Below, piece after piece: positions 17,283-39,609 of a stretch of DNA of 64,000 bases. The notes beneath the pieces were generated by a model that saw nothing but the letters and a program-made list of their open reading frames with translations, did no database searches and was not told the DNA's origin. The stretch's first letter is position 1; each line of letters starts with the position of its first letter. Location of the stretch: IMG/VR virus record IMGVR_UViG_3300025122_000010, positions 1-64,000 of that record; one strand, written 5' to 3'. The translations under genes and the position numbers were made by a program. The DNA comes from a virus.

Positions 17283-17455
17283 ATTGAGAAGCAAGGATTA
17301 GAGCTACTTCTATCAAATTGATAACTTGATACCTAAGACCGGCATTATGATTCGGTCACAGCGAACTAAGTAATACTTAGTTCAAAACCGCAACAAGCTA
17401 TTTTATCCTTTTGAGCGAAAAAAAGGAAATCCTCTGATTCGATAATTCTCTCAAT
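17283..17455 (+). ncRNA. Y-RNA-like unit 1
   Basis: ATTGAGA/TCTCAAT terminal stem; AGCAA//ATTC internal loop; GGATTAGAG/CTCTGATTC stem; CTACTTC; multi-hairpin apex; upstream of TROVE gene. Confidence 0.7.
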
Positions 17456-17470
17456 TGTAATAAGAATAAC

Positions 17471-17559
17471 ATGAAGAAAGCAAGGATTAGAGTTACTTCA
17501 TAATTTGCCTACAAAGCAAACTTTCAGAAAAGACACTCTGTCCAACAATTCTTCTTCAT
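17471..17559 (+). ncRNA. Y-RNA-like unit 2
   Basis: ATGAAGAA/TTCTTCAT stem; same loop; GGATTAGAGT/ACTCTGTCC; TTACTTC. Confidence 0.7.
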
Positions 17560-17579
17560 TTAAATTTGAATAATTTAAT

Positions 17580-17649
17580 ATCAGATAGCAAGCTAAAGAG
17601 TTACTTCGACATAGAGACGACAAATACTCTTGGCACCTATTCTTCTGAT
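17580..17649 (+). ncRNA. Y-RNA-like unit 3
   Basis: ATCAGA/TCTGAT stem; same loop; compensatory GCTAAAGAGT/ACTCTTGGC; TTACTTC. Confidence 0.7.
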
Positions 17650-17655
17650 TTATTG

Positions 17656-17696
17656 TAGACACGGACACTACAACAAATCTGTGTCTATTTTTGTTT
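17656..17696 (+). terminator. intrinsic terminator-like hairpin after the RNA array
   Basis: TAGACACGGA/TCTGTGTCTA followed by TTTTTGTTT. Confidence 0.55.
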
Positions 17697-17739
17697 GTCA
17701 AAAACTTCAACGCAGTATATACTCGAGGAGGTAAACGTT

Positions 17740-19353
17740 ATGGGAAAGTTCACAGGTACAGCAACTCCTAAGATTAATCATCGTAAGGCACATCCACGTG
17801 CTAGTGAGATCAAGGAAACAAGAAACTTTGAAAGTGGAAAGGCTTTCACTCTTCCTGCTAAGGAACGTCTAGCTACAAGAGTGATGACTTCAATGATTAA
17901 TGAGAAGTCATTCTATGGTGACACTACATCTGAGCTCTTGAATGATCTTAGAGAAGTTGCAAAGACAGATCCTCTATTCATTCTTAAGTTGGCTGCATAC
18001 ACTCGTAATATCATGTTCTTGCGTTCTGCTCCAACTTTTGTTCTAGCTCATGGCTCAATGATTCCTGAAGTGAAGCCTTATATTCGTCAGTGGACTCCTA
18101 AGATTCTAAAGAGAGCTGATGAACCAGCAGAGACACTTGCTGCAATCAATAGCATCTTTACTGAAAAGGGTGAGAAGCCAGTTATCCCTAACTCTATCAA
18201 GAAGGGTATCTCTGATGCATTGAGAAACTTTGACGCTTACCAGTTGATGAAGTATAAGGGTGAGGGACAGTCAGTTAATCTTTGGGATGTGTTCAATGTA
18301 TGTCACCCAAAGCCAACTAATGGTGAGCAAGCTTCAATGTGGAAGTCTTTCATGAATAGTGAACTCAATCCTGCTAAGACTTGGGAAACTGAGTTGTCTA
18401 AGACAGGACAGACTGGTAAGTCCAAGGCTAAGGCTTGGGAAGACATCATTCCTTCTATGGGTTATATGGCTATTATACGTAACCTTAGAAACTTCATTCA
18501 GGAAGGGTTGTCAGATGAATTGATTTCTGAAATTTGCAAGAAGTTGACAGACCCTAAGGCTGTTGCAAAGAACAAGCAGCTTCCATTCCGTTACTTCTCT
18601 GCTTATCGTGAGCTTGAAAAGCTTACAGGCAAAAGTATGTTTGCTCGTGACTACTGGGGAAATAGAGAAAATAGAGATGAAAAGGTGTTCACAGCTCCTG
18701 AGGAGAAGACTAAGATAAAGAAGCTAATGAGAGCTGTTGATAAGGCAATGGCACTTTCTGTTCAGAACGTCGATCAGTTGCCTGGTGTAACAGCGATCTT
18801 CTCTGATCACTCAGCTTCAATGGATAGCTCAATTTCAAGTAAGTCAAGCATTACGCATATGAACGTAGCAATGGTTCTTCATGCATTGACTGACTCTCTG
18901 AATCCTGAGAATGTTGGTGCAATCTTTGGTGAGTCAATTGCTGCTGTTGATTCTGAAGGTTTGACTCCAATGAAGTTTATTGAAGCAATGGTTAATACAG
19001 ATGTTGGTCACTCAACTAATGCTTGGTTGTGCTTTGATCATTTGACTAAGTCAAAGGTAAAAGTTGACAGAATCATCTTACTTTCAGACATGCAGTGTTA
19101 CAATTCTAGTGGATATGGACTTCGTTCTGGTTCACGAAGTGTATCTGACAAGTGGGATACATATCGCACCAAGGTTAACCCAGATGCTTGGTTCCATTCA
19201 ATTGATCTAGCTGGATATGGAACATCAGTTGAGCCGATCAATTCAAAGAATGTCTCACTCTTTGCCGGCTGGAACACAAGGTTCTTGGATGTTATCAAGG
19301 GAGTTGAGAAGGGTGTTGGTGGATTGGTTGAAGAGATTGAGAATTACAGTTAG
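17740..19353 (+). CDS. Ro60/Rsr-like TROVE-domain RNA-binding protein with C-terminal vWA domain
   Basis: RADEP, FDAYQLMKY, TWETELS, MAIIRNLRN, QLPFRYFSAY, DHSASM (MIDAS), LSDMQ; SD GAGGAGG before ATG at 17740. Confidence 0.92.
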   Translation: MGKFTGTATPKINHRKAHPRASEIKETRNFESGKAFTLPAKERLATRVMTSMINEKSFYGDTTSELLNDLREVAKTDPLFILKLAAYTRNIMFLRSAPTFVLAHGSMIPEVKPYIRQWTPKILKRADEPAETLAAINSIFTEKGEKPVIPNSIKKGISDALRNFDAYQLMKYKGEGQSVNLWDVFNVCHPKPTNGEQASMWKSFMNSELNPAKTWETELSKTGQTGKSKAKAWEDIIPSMGYMAIIRNLRNFIQEGLSDELISEICKKLTDPKAVAKNKQLPFRYFSAYRELEKLTGKSMFARDYWGNRENRDEKVFTAPEEKTKIKKLMRAVDKAMALSVQNVDQLPGVTAIFSDHSASMDSSISSKSSITHMNVAMVLHALTDSLNPENVGAIFGESIAAVDSEGLTPMKFIEAMVNTDVGHSTNAWLCFDHLTKSKVKVDRIILLSDMQCYNSSGYGLRSGSRSVSDKWDTYRTKVNPDAWFHSIDLAGYGTSVEPINSKNVSLFAGWNTRFLDVIKGVEKGVGGLVEEIENYS

Positions 19354-30523: not shown

Positions 30524-30723
30524 ATCAAGTAATATCAAGTAGTATAACAAAGGTTTCAACATGACCTTGTGAATATTCCTAACTTCATCATTTCATTAAA
30601 TGTATGGAGATATGGAACTTAGTTATATAACAAAGTGTTATATATCATGTAAGTTGTTTATTAACAACAACTTAAAGTACGCTCATTGACAACTAAATAT
30701 TTTAACACATTTTTGAAGAAAAT

Positions 30724-30752
30724 GTTTACTATCACTTAGAATTGATTATATT
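30724..30752 (+). promoter_or_regulatory. repeated early-type promoter, copy 1
   Basis: GTTTAC-N17-TATATT with conserved spacer; 4 copies in window. Confidence 0.75.
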
Positions 30753-31019
30753 ATAGATGTAAGGAAAAGGAAATAGGAATCAAGCCTCTAACGGAGAGAG
30801 ACATTGAACTTCAAATTCTGGTATTTGAATGGATGAGGTCATTTGAGATCTTTTCGAGGTTGGGGCCGACAACAAGGATGCTGCTTGGAGAGCATTTGGT
30901 GATTGGGAATCAAGGCAAGATAAGGAAGAGCAATGCTTTATGGTTCATGAATTGCTCACTTCAATTTCCAGTTAAAAAAAGGAAGAAACGGAGATGGAGC
31001 CACCCTGCTAAGATAGCCC

Positions 31020-31574: not shown

Positions 31575-32267
31575 ATGACCAGAGAAGAAGTTGAAGCACG
31601 GACAATCTATCTGGTGAGAGCAGGTTCTCACGCTTACGGTCTGAATACAGAGACTTCTGATGTGGACACTCGAGGCATCTGTATTCCAACAGAGGAAGCC
31701 ATTTATGGTCTTGGTAAATTCGAGCAGTATGAAGATAAGGTCAATGACACAGTCATCTATGATATTCGCAAGTTCTTCAGTCTAGCAATGAAGTGCAACC
31801 CAAATATCATTGAACTCTTGTTTGTCAATGACGAACACGTTCTAGAAATGAGTGGTATCGGAAAGGATCTGAGACAACACAGACGACTATTCGTCTCTCA
31901 GCTAGCAAGGAAGACATTTGGTGGATATGCAATCAGTCAAATGAAGAAGTTTCATAGATCAGCTCTCCAACCTGGAGCTCCGGAGCTAAACTACAAGAAT
32001 GCAATGCACCTCATCAGACTCTTGAGGACAGGAATCAGCATTCTTCAAACAGGAGAGCCAATTGTCAACAGAGAGCATGATCGAAAAGAGCTTCTAGCAA
32101 TTCGTAGAGGAGAGCATTCTAACGGTTCGATTATGGATATTGCAGATGAACTGTTTGAAAAGCTTGACCTCATGCCCTCAACCCTACAAAGTGAGCCGAA
32201 CTACGAGATGCTGAATCATCTACTCATCAGTTACATCAAAGGCTATCTGAAAGGGAATGACGGATGA
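31575..32267 (+). CDS. Pol-beta-superfamily nucleotidyltransferase (RlaP/Nuc-transf-like)
   Basis: GSHAYGLNTETSDVDTRG, KCNPNIIELL, KNAMHLIRLL. Confidence 0.85.
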   Translation: MTREEVEARTIYLVRAGSHAYGLNTETSDVDTRGICIPTEEAIYGLGKFEQYEDKVNDTVIYDIRKFFSLAMKCNPNIIELLFVNDEHVLEMSGIGKDLRQHRRLFVSQLARKTFGGYAISQMKKFHRSALQPGAPELNYKNAMHLIRLLRTGISILQTGEPIVNREHDRKELLAIRRGEHSNGSIMDIADELFEKLDLMPSTLQSEPNYEMLNHLLISYIKGYLKGNDG

Positions 32268-32773: not shown

Positions 32774-32853
32774 GGCCCCGTAGCTCCAAGGTATGGGAGA
32801 GCGTCTGGCTTGCACCCAGAAGGTTGAGAGTTCAATTCTCTCCGGGTCCACCA
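32774..32853 (+). tRNA. tRNA-Ala(TGC) with C3:U70
   Basis: Cloverleaf, loop CTTGCAC, CCA. Confidence 0.85.
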
Positions 32854-32860
32854 ACTTTGT

Positions 32861-32937
32861 GCCGGCGTAGCTGAGACTGGCTCTAGCAACGCCCTTGTAA
32901 GGCGTCGATGTGGGTTCGATTCCCTCCGCCGGCTCCA
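32861..32937 (+). tRNA. tRNA-Thr(TGT)
   Basis: Cloverleaf, loop CTTGTAA, CCA. Confidence 0.88.
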
Positions 32938-32944
32938 TATTTAC

Positions 32945-33074
32945 AGATCAACAAATCGTCTAATGGAAAGACACTTTGCTTGAGGAGGGCTGGTTCGACT
33001 CCAGCTGACGCGTAGTAGCTCACGAGGGAGAGCGCTGAGAAGAAATGCAGGTTCGAATCCTGTTTTGTTGATCT
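32945..33074 (+). ncRNA. double-elbow tRNA mimic (permuted T-arm/D-arm module nested in place of the anticodon loop)
   Basis: 11-bp terminal stem; arms in order D,T,D,T; two TTCGA loops; no anticodon, no CCA. Confidence 0.7.
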
Positions 33075-33089
33075 TTATTTTGAACTTTT

Positions 33090-33118
33090 GTTTACTATCA
33101 CTTAGAATTGATTATATT
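33090..33118 (+). promoter_or_regulatory. repeated early-type promoter, copy 2
   Basis: GTTTAC-N17-TATATT. Confidence 0.75.
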
Positions 33119-33140
33119 AGCTTATAAGGAAAAAGGAATT

Positions 33141-33227
33141 GGTCGCACCTCTGATCGTCTAATTAGGGAAGACACCGCATATAAATGCGGAGATAAGGGT
33201 TCGATCCCCTCATGAGGTTACGCGATC
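33141..33227 (+). ncRNA. tRNA-like RNA with shortened anticodon loop and extended acceptor stem
   Basis: D arm GTCT/AGAC, CCGCAT-ATAA-ATGCGG, T loop TTCGATC, no CCA. Confidence 0.6.
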
Positions 33228-33517
33228 ACTAGGTAGAATGATAGGGCTTGCCGGCTTTAAATAACTTCTACCGATTGGGTATGGGGTTAGAGTTACGGCA
33301 ATAACTCTAACTCCTGCTCAACTTACTAGAGATTAGATATGCCAAAAATCAAAGACACATTCAAGATTGACGAAGTGATAGAGAAACTAATTCCATCATT
33401 GTTTAGACGAAGGGAGTTGTATGCGAAGCTAGCTGAATTAAACTTAAAGAACGATGAATTCAATAAACTGTTCACAAAGTTACACAATAATTTACTACCA
33501 CACAGGAGGAATTAACA

Positions 33518-33712
33518 ATGCCTTTGTATCCAGATGTTAAGGTCAAGTTGGTGGGTTCAGACGGAAATGCTTTCGCTATTTTGGGAAAGGTTTCTAAGGC
33601 ACTCAAGCGAGCTGGGCATGGGGATGCGGCTGATAAGTATACTGAAGAGTCGATGGCTGGTGACTATGACAACTTACTTGTCACTGCTTGCAAGTATGTG
33701 ACGGTTAGCTAG
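33518..33712 (+). CDS. small conserved phage protein (GNAF family; paralog of 36774)
   Basis: SD AGGGAG; LVGSDGNAFAILG..GDYDNLL. Confidence 0.7.
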   Translation: MPLYPDVKVKLVGSDGNAFAILGKVSKALKRAGHGDAADKYTEESMAGDYDNLLVTACKYVTVS

Positions 33713-35479: not shown

Positions 35480-36069
35480 TGAACTGTAAACATTGTGACA
35501 AAGAGTTAGTAGGAAAAAGAAAAGGCGCAAAGTATTGTGATATATACTGCTTAAACAGACATTCAAACGAGAATAGAATATTCACTGATTCACATAGAAA
35601 AAAGATAAGCGAAAAGCACAAAGGAAAGAGATTATCCGAAGATCATAAAAGAAAAATAAGTGAGAGTCTTAAAGGAGTTAACGTAGGTAAGAAACATTCT
35701 GCTGAATCAAAACATAACATGTCAGTAGCACGAAAAAAGTTATTAAAGAACAGACCAGATTTACATCCTAATAATCTTTGCAGAGGAAAAAAGAGTTATC
35801 CGCAAGAATTGTTATTTGATGAACTTACTAAAATCTTCAAAAAAGTAGATAATGAAGTCTATTATAAAAGCTATTGGATTGATCTATTAGTTAATGATAT
35901 TTTAGCAGTTGAGGTAGATGGAGAGTTTTGGCATAAAGGAAGAGAAAATTCTGATAGAGAAAAAGATAGTGTAATTAGAACCAAATATAGTTTAGTAAGA
36001 ATACCTGCAAAAGATGTTTTAAATGATGTCAACAAAGTAGTAAAGAGAATATGTGGGCTGGTAGTTTAA
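35479..36069 (+). mobile_element. free-standing homing endonuclease (Zn finger + NUMOD3 repeats + Vsr/DUF559-like nuclease)
   Basis: HRKKISE, HKRKISESLKG, KHSAESK repeats; WIDL..AVEVDGEFWH. Confidence 0.85.
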
Positions 36070-36129
36070 TTGGGAAAATACTAGACTTGCACTCTTGTGT
36101 CAAGGGTTCGAATCCCTTCCGGTCCACCA
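36055..36129 (+). tRNA. tRNA-Ala(TGC) with G3:U70; overlaps the endonuclease 3' end
   Basis: Loop CTTGCAC, A73, CCA. Confidence 0.85.
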
Positions 36130-36137
36130 AAAAACAT

Positions 36138-36209
36138 GGGCGAGTAACTCAAGCAATATTTTAGGCAGAGTACCGGTAGTTACGGGTTCGAATCCCGCCT
36201 CGTCCACCA
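36138..36209 (+). ncRNA. tRNA-like RNA lacking the anticodon arm, with G3:U70, A73 and CCA
   Basis: GGGCGAG/CTCGTCC, ACTC/GAGT with 17-nt loop, 10-nt linker, TTCGAAT T arm. Confidence 0.75.
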
Positions 36210-39534: not shown

Positions 39535-39609
39535 CCCCAGTTCGTCTAATGAATAGGATACGGAGCTACGGACTCTGTGATATAGGTTTGATCCCTATAC
39601 TGGGGACCA
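39535..39609 (+). tRNA. tRNA-Arg(ACG) with deviant D and T loops
   Basis: Loop CTACGGA; T loop TTTGATC; D loop lacks GG; CCA. Confidence 0.75.

What the first reader, a model, noticed from the sequence alone, without database searches (positions are those of the whole stretch)
32945..33074. Double-elbow tRNA mimic: two D/T-arm pairs joined head to head, no anticodon
Seen, in order: 11-bp terminal stem (AGATCAACAAA/TTTGTTGATCT), D arm GTCT-AATGGAA-AGAC, connector, T arm GCTGG-TTCGACT-CCAGC, short linker, TA plus D arm GCTC-ACGAGGGA-GAGC, connector (CTGAG/AAG pairing imperfectly with CTTTGCTTGAG), T arm GCAGG-TTCGAAT-CCTGT. There is no CCA. The inner T-then-D order is a circularly permuted tRNA. 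Known: the YrlA effector domain has this permuted arrangement with a closed acceptor end. Inference: a bivalent elbow mimic (decoy or scaffold for elbow-binding proteins), possibly linked to the phage Ro60. tRNA scanners would probably miss or mis-call it.
Basis: partly seen in the sequence, partly recalled or inferred. Interest (0 to 1): 0.82.

Follow-up and report, generated by a model that had tools for sequence, protein, structure and literature searches.

The report
Two-elbow, anticodon-less phage tRNA mimic
A marine giant phage carries a 130-base RNA gene shaped like a tRNA whose codon-reading loop is replaced by a second, back-to-front tRNA body, so it cannot decode and probably works by imitating tRNA shape, though its job is untested.

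Summary
The described arms are all present at 32945-33074. There is an 11-bp terminal stem, two D arms, two T arms with canonical T loops, and no CCA. ARAGORN misses it. Rfam's tRNA model calls it a tRNA with a 58-nt insertion in the anticodon loop. An independent marine data set holds the same 258 bases, so it is not an assembly chimera.

The "shared anticodon-like helix" is not supported. Connector pairing is no better than shuffles (p 0.53) and has zero pairing probability.

I found no ortholog of this element. I did find the same nested D-T-D-T layout in 11 other phage, metagenome and genome contigs. Most of these have a real connector helix. A model built from them alone ranks this element first in the window (65.4 bits, full length).

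A link to Ro60 is not supported. The gene lies 13.6 kb away, the Y-RNA handle motif is absent, and no TROVE turned up in the 4 viral records searchable of those holding other dimers.

Function is inferred: a non-chargeable, non-decoding tRNA-shape mimic.

This scan has reported the same design on other DNA (e.g. e1-5392792, e1-6050838). I found it in no Rfam family or searched paper.

The parts
32945..32955 (+). 5' strand of the 11-bp terminal stem. 32949-32955 is the 7-nt acceptor-like part; 32945-32948 extends it.
   Evidence: sequence. Pairing probability 0.7-1.0. Aligned as acceptor by Rfam tRNA and by model R2.
32956..32957 (+). U8-C9-like joint between the acceptor and D1
   Evidence: Rfam tRNA alignment
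32958..32972 (+). Outer D arm (D1): 4-bp stem, 7-nt loop with GG
   Evidence: Pairing probability 0.39. The word TCGTCTAAT recurs at 33155 and in tRNA-Arg at 39542.
32973..32988 (+). Connector c1 (16 nt), purine-rich 3' half. No significant pairing with c2.
32989..33005 (+). Inner T arm (T1): 5-bp stem, loop UUCGACU
   Evidence: The YrlA model aligns here. R2 alignment. Pairing probability 0.67.
33006..33017 (+). 10-nt linker plus UA, standing where YrlA and the other dimers have a closed acceptor hairpin.
   Evidence: Compare the linker column.
33018..33033 (+). Inner D arm (D2): GCUC/GAGC stem, 8-nt loop with GGG
   Evidence: Pairing probability 0.95.
33034..33046 (+). Connector c2 (13 nt)
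33047..33063 (+). Outer T arm (T2): loop UUCGAAU
   Evidence: Pairing probability 0.88-0.98.
33064..33074 (+). 3' strand of the terminal stem. The discriminator-like A (33071) and the next 3 nt are paired. No CCA. A T-rich tail follows.
30713..30754 (+). Promoter-like site, copy 1. Likely start of the unit that ends with the element (inference).
   Evidence: Near-identical hexamers to the site at 33080-33118.
31575..32267 (+). RlaP-family nucleotidyltransferase gene in the same presumed unit
   Evidence: PF10127, 95 bits. phrog_388.
32861..32937 (+). tRNA-Thr(tgt) ending in CCA, 7 nt upstream of the element
33080..33118 (+). Promoter-like site, copy 2, directly downstream. It marks the end of the element's transcription unit (inference).
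33140..33228 (+). Second non-decoding tRNA-like RNA. It has a nearly identical D arm, a 6-bp hairpin with a 4-nt loop instead of an anticodon arm, a closed extended terminal stem, and no CCA. Probable paralogue of the outer body.
   Evidence: (23.1 bits, below cut-off)

Best explanation
Shown:
- 32945-33074 is a tRNA-derived RNA gene with two tRNA 'elbow' modules.
- The outer module has a terminal/acceptor stem, a D arm and a T arm in normal order.
- Where its anticodon loop should be, a second module runs T arm, short linker, UA, D arm. This is the circularly permuted order of the YrlA effector domain.
- It has no anticodon arm. Its 3' end is sealed in an 11-bp stem without CCA. As encoded it can neither decode nor be charged.

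Inferred:
- It is made as the last RNA of an early unit: promoter-like site 30713, tRNA-Asn, RlaP, two small ORFs, two tRNAs, then this element.
- Each D loop docks on its T loop, as in tRNA and YrlA. The RNA then displays two elbows held together by flexible connectors.
- It acts by shape. It is a stable competitor or scaffold for proteins that read the tRNA body rather than the anticodon.
- It works together with the phage's other non-decoding tRNA look-alikes and its RNA-repair genes (RlaP, Ro60) in the conflict over host tRNA cleavage.

Odds: I put about 0.8 on the structural statement and about 0.35 on the decoy/scaffold mechanism.
For: - All arms and the universal tRNA loop residues are present in both modules: U8-like U, A14, GG in each D loop, UUCGA in each T loop.
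- Rfam tRNA scores 42.9 bits with a 58-nt insertion. The YrlA model aligns its T arm, hairpin and D arm positions 31-81 to the inner module.
- 32 of 34 true tRNAs here encode CCA. This element does not, and its tail is paired.
- An identical 258-nt contig exists in an independent study.
- The same nested layout occurs in 11 other contigs. Among 101 candidate D-T-(16 nt or less)-D-T arrangements, 25 close with at least 6 of 7 acceptor pairs, against about 1.3 expected.
- Connector helices in those 11 are better than shuffles (Fisher p 3e-6).
- Stems covary, with 13 of 21 pairs changed on both sides. This carries an ascertainment caveat.
- A model built without the window (R2) places this element first in the window at 65.4 bits, full length, with no mismatched pair.
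- Context: an RlaP gene lies 680 nt upstream. RlaP adds 1-2 nt to damaged RNA 3' ends and is proposed to counter ribotoxins that trim cleaved tRNA (bioRxiv 10.64898/2025.12.29.696909, passages read; PMC7824862, passages read).
- The YrlA crystal-structure paper argues that such elbows are the binding site of an unknown factor (bioRxiv 10.1101/312249, passages read).
Against: - No ortholog of this particular element was found. Places searched: GenBank phages; IMG/VR pattern scans; 80 RlaP loci; 80 loci of the downstream small protein. There is therefore no covariation for this lineage.
- Its two connectors do not pair, unlike most other dimers. The relative placement of the two elbows is therefore unknown.
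- Folding energy is unremarkable (z -1.41), and D1 has pairing probability only 0.39.
- R2 also gives tandem tRNA pairs up to 56.8 bits, so the 65.4-bit margin is modest.
- No binding partner, expression or processing data exist.
- The other dimers have no shared neighbour gene: serine integrase, portal, methylase.
Confidence: 0.45

Rival explanations
1. End-cap or punctuation element. The compact tRNA-like fold at the 3' end of the early tRNA/RlaP transcript mainly protects the transcript from 3'-to-5' exonucleases. It may also give RNase P/RNase Z-type enzymes a defined site to release the upstream tRNAs. It would have no trans-acting role. The nearest parallels are the stable species 1 RNA at the end of the T4 tRNA cluster and tRNA-like 3' ends cut from long RNAs.
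For: - It is the last feature before a new promoter-like site.
- It sits 7 nt after tRNA-Thr.
- It is closed by an 11-bp stem and followed by a T-rich tail.
- T4 rnaC likewise ends the T4 tRNA cluster and carries a T arm.
- L230's dimer also follows a tRNA and ends an array.
Against: - A plain hairpin would do this job. Two complete elbow modules with all tertiary-contact residues are more than it needs.
- Terminator-like sites in the region are not above chance: 2 found, 2.8 expected.
- Other dimers sit inside arrays, with tRNAs following them, for example L036.
Confidence: 0.2
2. Non-functional relic. Recombination or homing-endonuclease traffic among the 34 tRNA genes left a tRNA with a T-arm/D-arm junction fragment inserted in its anticodon loop.
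For: - No ortholog was found.
- The connectors are unpaired.
- Homing endonuclease genes lie in the array.
- Degenerate overlapping tandem tRNAs exist elsewhere, for example L115, L121 and L126.
Against: - All five helices are intact. The terminal stem is perfect over 11 bp and reaches 4 bp beyond a tRNA acceptor.
- The same layout arose or persists in at least 11 other contigs of very different base composition.
- A paralogous closed tRNA-like RNA lies 65 nt downstream.
Confidence: 0.15
3. Trans-acting Y RNA partner of the phage Ro60. The inner YrlA-type module or the long terminal stem would dock on Ro60.
For: - The phage encodes Ro60.
- The inner module has the YrlA order.
- The three Y-like RNAs beside Ro60 lack any T or D arm. 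A tRNA-like part supplied in trans is therefore conceivable.
- Some Ro60-adjacent RNAs elsewhere carry two T-hairpin-D modules in series: L234, L246, L391.
Against: - It lies 13.6 kb from Ro60. Chen et al. 2014 reported only candidates within 4 kb (PMC4201824, passages read).
- It has no AGCAAG...TACTTC handle.
- The YrlA model gives 15.6 bits against a cut-off of 69.
- 0 of 12 nested-dimer loci has a Ro60 relative, and 0 of 4 viral records has TROVE.
Confidence: 0.07
4. A precursor that is matured into a chargeable or decoding RNA. One route is splicing out of the inner module: read as an outer tRNA, positions 32-37 are C-U-UGA-G and the insertion begins at the canonical 37/38 site. The other route is RNase P cleavage, trimming and CCA addition at the outer acceptor.
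For: - The Rfam alignment places the insertion in the anticodon loop.
- M. smegmatis YrlA is cut by RNase P and receives CCA (PMC4201824).
- Earlier notes of this scan report valine-type identity bases in other double-elbow families.
Against: - No bulge-helix-bulge motif is present. From general knowledge, no splicing endonuclease is known in bacteria or phages.
- U33 is not kept in the other dimers.
- An anticodon UGA with a 4-nt variable loop fits no seryl identity.
- There is no A35-C36 here, so it is not valine-type.
- The 5' leader and 3' trailer are paired. From general knowledge, this disfavours RNase P.
- The phage encodes CCA on 32 of 34 real tRNAs.
Confidence: 0.05

Closest known systems
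YrlA (Y RNA-like A, Rfam RF02553; Chen et al. 2014 PMC4201824; structure bioRxiv 10.1101/312249)
   Same: The inner module has the permuted order: T arm, then D arm preceded by UA. It has the GCUC/GAGC D stem and canonical T loop, no anticodon loop and no free CCA. It presumably forms the same elbow.
   Different: - There is no Ro60-binding stem or handle. The RNA ends form a tRNA acceptor-like stem with their own D and T arms.
- A 10-nt linker stands in place of the closed acceptor hairpin.
- It is not next to Ro60.
- It scores 15.6 bits against a cut-off of 69.
Canonical tRNA (RF00005)
   Same: The outer acceptor, D arm, T arm and 4-nt variable stretch score 42.9 bits. It lies in a tRNA array.
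   Different: - There is no anticodon arm; 58 nt carrying a second T arm and D arm stand in its place.
- The acceptor is extended to 11 bp.
- There is no CCA in a genome where 32 of 34 tRNAs encode it.
- ARAGORN does not call it.
Nested D-T-D-T tRNA-like dimers of other phage, metagenome and genome contigs: L024, L036, L072, L114=L232, L224, L242, L230, L250, L262, L307, L399. This is an unnamed class. It was also reported by earlier agents of this scan.
   Same: The order of parts is the same: a 7-bp outer acceptor, a discriminator A, no encoded CCA, and a short T1-to-D2 spacing. A model built from them recognises the window element end to end.
   Different: - Ten of the 11 have an inner acceptor hairpin of 2-5 bp; L230 does not.
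- Eight of the 11 have a connector helix with shuffle p at or below 0.081.
- The window element has neither feature, and adds a 4-bp extension that buries the discriminator.
- No sequence homology was detected beyond tRNA-universal motifs.
Phage T4 species 1 and 2 RNAs (rnaC, rnaD)
   Same: They are small stable RNAs of unknown function encoded at the end of a phage tRNA cluster. rnaC has a T arm and a tRNA-like terminal stem.
   Different: rnaC has a single T arm and no D-T-D-T layout. Model R1 gives 14.9 bits over the terminal stem and T arm only.

Membership tests
tRNA (RF00005) | Acceptor stem, D arm and T arm with conserved loop residues; score above the curated cut-off | tested here: met
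   42.9 bits against a cut-off of 29, model positions 1-71
tRNA (RF00005) | Anticodon arm with a 5-bp stem and 7-nt loop | tested here: not met
   58 nt are inserted in the loop. ARAGORN makes no call. There is no closed 7-nt loop in the sequence.
tRNA (RF00005) | Free single-stranded 3' end with discriminator and CCA (encoded in this phage) | tested here: not met
   The tail is paired in the 11-bp stem and there is no CCA. 32 of 34 window tRNAs end in CCA.
YrlA (RF02553) | Permuted tRNA-like domain: T arm, closed acceptor hairpin, D arm | tested here: inconclusive
   The T-then-D order and the UA joint are present, and model positions 31-81 align. The acceptor hairpin is replaced by a 10-nt linker that cannot form a hairpin.
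YrlA (RF02553) | 5' and 3' ends form the Ro60-binding stem; score above the curated cut-off | tested here: not met
   15.6 bits against 69, E 1.9. The ends form a tRNA acceptor-like stem. The handle motif seen in the window's Ro60-adjacent RNAs is absent.
YrlA (RF02553) | Encoded next to rsr/Ro60 (within 4 kb in Chen et al. 2014) | tested here: not met
   The Ro60 ORF is 17695-19353. The element starts at 32945.
Nested double-elbow tRNA-like dimers (unnamed) | Order acceptor-D1-c1-T1-short spacer-UA-D2-c2-T2-acceptor, with T1-to-D2 spacing too short for two separate tRNAs | tested here: met
   The scanner gives acceptor 7 of 7, spacer 12 nt. R2, built without the window, gives 65.4 bits, full length, top of the window. 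Caveat: tandem tRNAs reach 56.8 bits elsewhere.
Nested double-elbow tRNA-like dimers (unnamed) | Connectors c1 and c2 pair into a shared helix | tested here: not met
   Window p is 0.53, against at or below 0.081 in 8 of the 11 others. Pairing probability is 0.00.
Nested double-elbow tRNA-like dimers (unnamed) | Common descent with the other members | tested here: inconclusive
   No similarity was found beyond tRNA-universal motifs. Flanking genes are unrelated (tblastx).
Valine-type double-elbow family noted earlier in this scan | A35-C36 kept in the opened anticodon loop, plus A73 | tested here: not met
   Positions 34-36 read UGA in the window. None of the 11 other c1 connectors read shows NAC at that place. 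A73 is present but paired.

The most novel reading that the evidence does not exclude
Nested double-elbow RNAs would be an undescribed, recurrent class of phage-borne bivalent tRNA mimics. A YrlA-type elbow module is grafted into the anticodon position of a tRNA body, so one RNA can hold two tRNA-body-binding proteins, or both halves of a dimeric one. In this marine giant phage the element would belong to an early-expressed set of at least three anticodon-less tRNA look-alikes (32945, 33140, 36138). Together with RlaP and Ro60, the set would blunt or repair host attacks on tRNA.
Probability: 0.3. Interest if true: 0.8.

Novelty: new variant of a known kind. Interest (0 to 1): 0.62.

Why it matters
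tRNA-shaped RNAs that cannot decode are known only in a few forms: tmRNA, viral 3' tRNA-like ends, YrlA and mascRNA. The partner of the YrlA elbow is still unknown.

An RNA that shows two elbows on one molecule, independent of Ro60, gives a second and simpler handle on what reads the elbow. It recurs in unrelated phages and sits among tRNA genes where annotation pipelines either skip it or call it a tRNA. In this phage it lies beside an RlaP repair enzyme.

It also matters for counting phage tRNAs. Here Rfam reports it as a tRNA.

Tried and rejected
**Orthologs of this element**
- GenBank phages, blastn distant mode, 701-nt query: 9 records, all ordinary tRNA matches.
- Relatives through the RlaP protein alone: 31 stretches matched a pattern, none confirmed.
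- Relatives through UvsX/RecA: 2 loci at 33% identity.
- Relatives through an RlaP alignment: 80 loci kept of 453. R2 found only tandem or single tRNAs among its 7 matches.
- Relatives through the downstream 64-aa protein: 80 loci kept of 522. R1 gave 3 weak matches. I read one of them, L468, which is a different two-T-arm RNA.
- IMG/VR pattern for an AATGG D loop, short c1, T1 and short spacer to D2: 4 stretches, none with this layout.
- The rest of the phage's own 84-kb record holds no second copy.

**Expression**
- No RNA holder was listed.
- Runs X7, X9 and X10 left the element without cover. Their loose ends at 33089 look like the other promoter copy. I draw nothing from that.

**Ro60 link**: rejected as above. 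In the 5 whole genomes checked, TROVE was present in 2. In the one genome whose locus (L399) holds a nested dimer, TROVE appeared to lie on a different contig, judged from contig numbering only.

**RlaP link as a general rule**: rejected.

**T4 rnaC/rnaD as homologues**: rejected.

**Intron reading and valine identity**: rejected (see rivals).

**Neighbour proteins as obvious partners**: the four small ORFs flanking the element have no informative family.

**Literature**
- Six full-text searches found no description of a nested or double tRNA-like RNA.
- The Annual Review on Ro60 (PMC10870794) is not held.
- I did not request supplementary files. Supplemental Fig. S1 and Tables S1-S2 of Chen et al. 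2014 list the YrlA candidates and could hold multi-module forms that I did not see.

Full report
**What is there.** The window is part of an 84-kb IMG/VR record, with CheckV completeness 31%. Its DNA recurs in marine metagenomes. It carries T4-like gp32 and UvsX/RecA genes, an RlaP nucleotidyltransferase and a Ro60/TROVE gene. ARAGORN finds 34 tRNA genes between 31.3 and 46.9 kb.

- an 11-bp perfect terminal stem;
- UC, then a D arm (GUCU/AGAC, loop AAUGGAA);
- a 16-nt connector;
- a T arm (GCUGG/CCAGC, loop UUCGACU);
- a 10-nt linker, then UA;
- a second D arm (GCUC/GAGC, loop ACGAGGGA);
- a 13-nt connector;
- a second T arm (GCAGG/CCUGU, loop UUCGAAU);
- the closing strand.

ARAGORN does not call it. 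Rfam's tRNA model scores it 42.9 bits as a tRNA with 58 nt inserted in the anticodon loop. The YrlA model aligns its T arm, hairpin and D arm section (model positions 31-81) to the inner part, at a sub-threshold 15.6 bits.

**Is it more than chance, and is it real DNA?**
- An exact 11-bp inverted repeat placed precisely outside a D arm and a T arm is not a chance event.
- Folding energy alone is unremarkable: z -1.41, with 19 of 200 shuffles as good. By my own knowledge this is common for tRNA-like RNAs.
- In the ensemble the terminal stem, T2 and D2 are near-certain, T1 is 0.67 and D1 is 0.39.
- A Logan contig of 258 nt from a different study (X5) covers 32861-33118 without a single difference. 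An assembly chimera is therefore excluded. No variants were seen, so these data give no covariation.
- 32 of 34 true tRNAs in the window end in an encoded CCA. This element has none, and its discriminator-like A and the next three bases are paired to the 5' leader.

**The one part that fails.** The best c1/c2 duplex is -3.9 kcal/mol, against -4.1 +/- 2.0 for shuffled c2 (p 0.53). The proposed pairs have probability 0.00. With the four arms enforced, the model prefers a weak local hairpin in c1 and an extension of the D2 stem, at an energy equal to the unconstrained optimum. The geometry between the two modules is therefore open.

**Related sequences.** I found no ortholog of this element (details under Tried and rejected). 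The architecture itself recurs.
- Pattern scans for a T loop followed at short range by a D arm returned three kinds of RNA: many ordinary single-module YrlA-like RNAs; chains of T arm, hairpin and D arm units; and nested dimers.
- I wrote a scanner requiring D1, T1, a T1-to-D2 gap of 16 nt or less, D2 and T2. It found 101 candidate arrangements in 447 sources (4.5 Mb). Of these, 25 close with at least 6 of 7 acceptor pairs, where about 1.3 are expected. The distribution is bimodal.
- After removing duplicates, tandem tRNAs and chains, 11 nested dimers remain besides the window: L024, L036, L072, L114=L232, L224, L242, L230, L250, L262, L307 and L399. L399 lies in a Kitasatospora genome.
- All 11 have a 7-bp outer acceptor and no encoded CCA; 10 of the 11 have a discriminator A (L307 has T).
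- Their connectors pair better than shuffles: p at or below 0.081 in 8 of 11, Fisher 3e-6. They fall into about five or six related groups, so this overstates independence.
- In an alignment of ten dimers, 99% of stem cells pair and 13 of 21 pairs change on both sides. The slid controls give 35-48%. The sequences were selected for these stems, so this mostly shows consistency.
- A covariance model built from the 11 others alone (R2) finds the window element as the best match in the 64 kb: 65.4 bits, E 1e-13, all 134 positions, no mismatched pair. The next hits are tandem tRNA pairs at 45.5 and 41.1 bits. In other loci tandem tRNAs reach 56.8 bits, so the margin is real but modest.
- L230 is AT-rich, has a 4-nt linker and weak connectors, and is the closest in style. 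Its flanks share no detectable genes with the window.

**Ro60.**
- The window's Ro60 ORF (17695-19353) is preceded by three Y-like RNAs. They share an AGCAAG...AGAG(C/U)UACUUC handle and have no T or D arms. Rfam does not recognise them.
- The element lacks that handle and lies 13.6 kb away.
- Single-module YrlA-like loci were often Ro60-adjacent: Ro60 relatives appear in 24 non-own loci. None of these is one of the 12 loci that hold the 11 other nested dimers.
- 0 of 4 whole viral records with nested dimers has TROVE. Two of these are proviruses 66 and 88% complete.
- Some chain-type RNAs are Ro60-adjacent (L234, L246, L391). Cultured phages show both patterns. Gordonia phage Cashline has a T-hairpin-D match upstream of an annotated Ro-like gene (sequence not read). 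Microbacterium phage BAjuniper has an unannotated chain inside its tRNA row.

**Context and likely working.**
- Two promoter-like sites with near-identical hexamers lie at 30713-30754 and 33080-33118. The total count of such sites in the region is not above chance.
- I infer a unit running tRNA-Asn, a further odd cloverleaf, RlaP, two small ORFs, two tRNAs, and then this element, followed by a T-rich tail.
- Sixty-five bases on, a second tRNA-like RNA (33140-33228) has an almost identical D arm, a stunted hairpin in place of the anticodon arm, and again a closed, extended terminal stem without CCA.
- At 36138-36209 a third has G3:U70, A73 and CCA but only 10 nt between the D and T arms.
- RlaP enzymes add one or two nucleotides to damaged RNA 3' ends. 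They are proposed to counter ribotoxins that trim cleaved tRNA (bioRxiv 10.64898/2025.12.29.696909, abstract and passages; PMC7824862, passages).
- The YrlA structure paper argues that the conserved elbow is the docking site of an unidentified factor (bioRxiv 10.1101/312249, passages).

Putting these together, the best-supported reading is a stable, sealed tRNA-shape mimic that offers two elbows to proteins that read the tRNA body. That it is a structured RNA gene with this architecture is shown or strongly implied. That it is a decoy or scaffold is inference.

**Comparison with the known, and novelty.**
- It is not a tRNA: no anticodon arm and no CCA.
- It is not a YrlA: no Ro60 stem, no acceptor hairpin, not beside Ro60, 15.6 against 69 bits.
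- T4 rnaC/rnaD share only the setting.
- It fits an unnamed class of nested double-elbow RNAs, with two departures: no connector helix, and a sealed 11-bp end.
- Rfam 15 reports only partial tRNA hits on four other members (L024, L036, L072, L114).
- Six full-text searches gave no description.
- Earlier agents of this scan reported the same design in other genomes. I did not use their claims as evidence. I tested their valine-identity idea here and it does not hold.

I rate the finding a new variant of a known kind (tRNA mimics of the YrlA type), interest 0.62.

Noticed in passing
window 33140-33228 (and hairpins to 33320): A second non-decoding tRNA-like RNA just after promoter-like copy 2. 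Its D arm is nearly identical to D1 of the element. A 6-bp hairpin with a 4-nt loop replaces the anticodon arm. The terminal stem is extended and closed, and there is no CCA. Rfam tRNA gives 23.1 bits, below cut-off. The 196-nt stretch folds with z -4.47.
   Followed up: partly
window 36138-36209: A minimal tRNA-like RNA with G3:U70, A73 and an encoded CCA, but only 10 nt between the D and T arms. Rfam tRNA gives 30.7 bits, just above cut-off. It may be chargeable by AlaRS without being able to decode.
   Followed up: partly
window 17283-17649: Three Y-RNA-like genes lie directly upstream of the phage Ro60 ORF. They share an AGCAAG...AGAG(C/U)UACUUC handle but carry no T or D arm. No Rfam family matches them.
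   Followed up: partly
window 32774-32853: The tRNA called Ala(tgc) is 80 nt long. By eye it has C3 opposite U70 instead of the G3:U70 alanine identity pair. A second Ala(tgc) lies at 36055-36129.
   Followed up: no
window 30713-30754 and 33080-33118: A duplicated promoter-like module with the same two overlapping hexamer pairs. Contigs of other runs join the same module to other upstream sequences (loose ends at 33089). The module is therefore probably repeated in the genome.
   Followed up: partly
L105, L108, L109, L137, L041, L017, L020; L445 (Microbacterium phage BAjuniper 41.2-41.5 kb): Chains of T arm, acceptor hairpin and D arm units joined by connectors of about 18 nt ('beads on a string') inside phage tRNA rows. 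They are unannotated in the cultured phage BAjuniper.
   Followed up: partly
L402, L227, L240, L243 and about 20 further Sphingobacterium and Chitinophagales loci; L234, L246, L391: Bacteroidota chromosomes carry an RNA with a conserved 5' handle followed by two or more T-hairpin-D modules in series. In L234, L246 and L391 a Ro60 relative lies within the locus. This suggests multi-module Y RNAs.
   Followed up: partly
L254, L441, L249: Tandem (not nested) mini-tRNAs with 4-6-nt 'anticodon' loops and shared or 5-bp acceptor stems.
   Followed up: no
window 33518-33712: A 64-aa ORF 450 nt downstream belongs to phrog_1933 (unknown function). It has relatives in more than 520 IMG/VR stretches, with invariant G-N-A and G-D-Y motifs.
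   Followed up: partly
L076 3231-3353, L094 1294-1417: tRNA-shaped genes with an encoded CCA and an insertion of about 60 nt in the anticodon region. The insertion contains a CAGCA handle-like motif instead of a T-D module.
   Followed up: no
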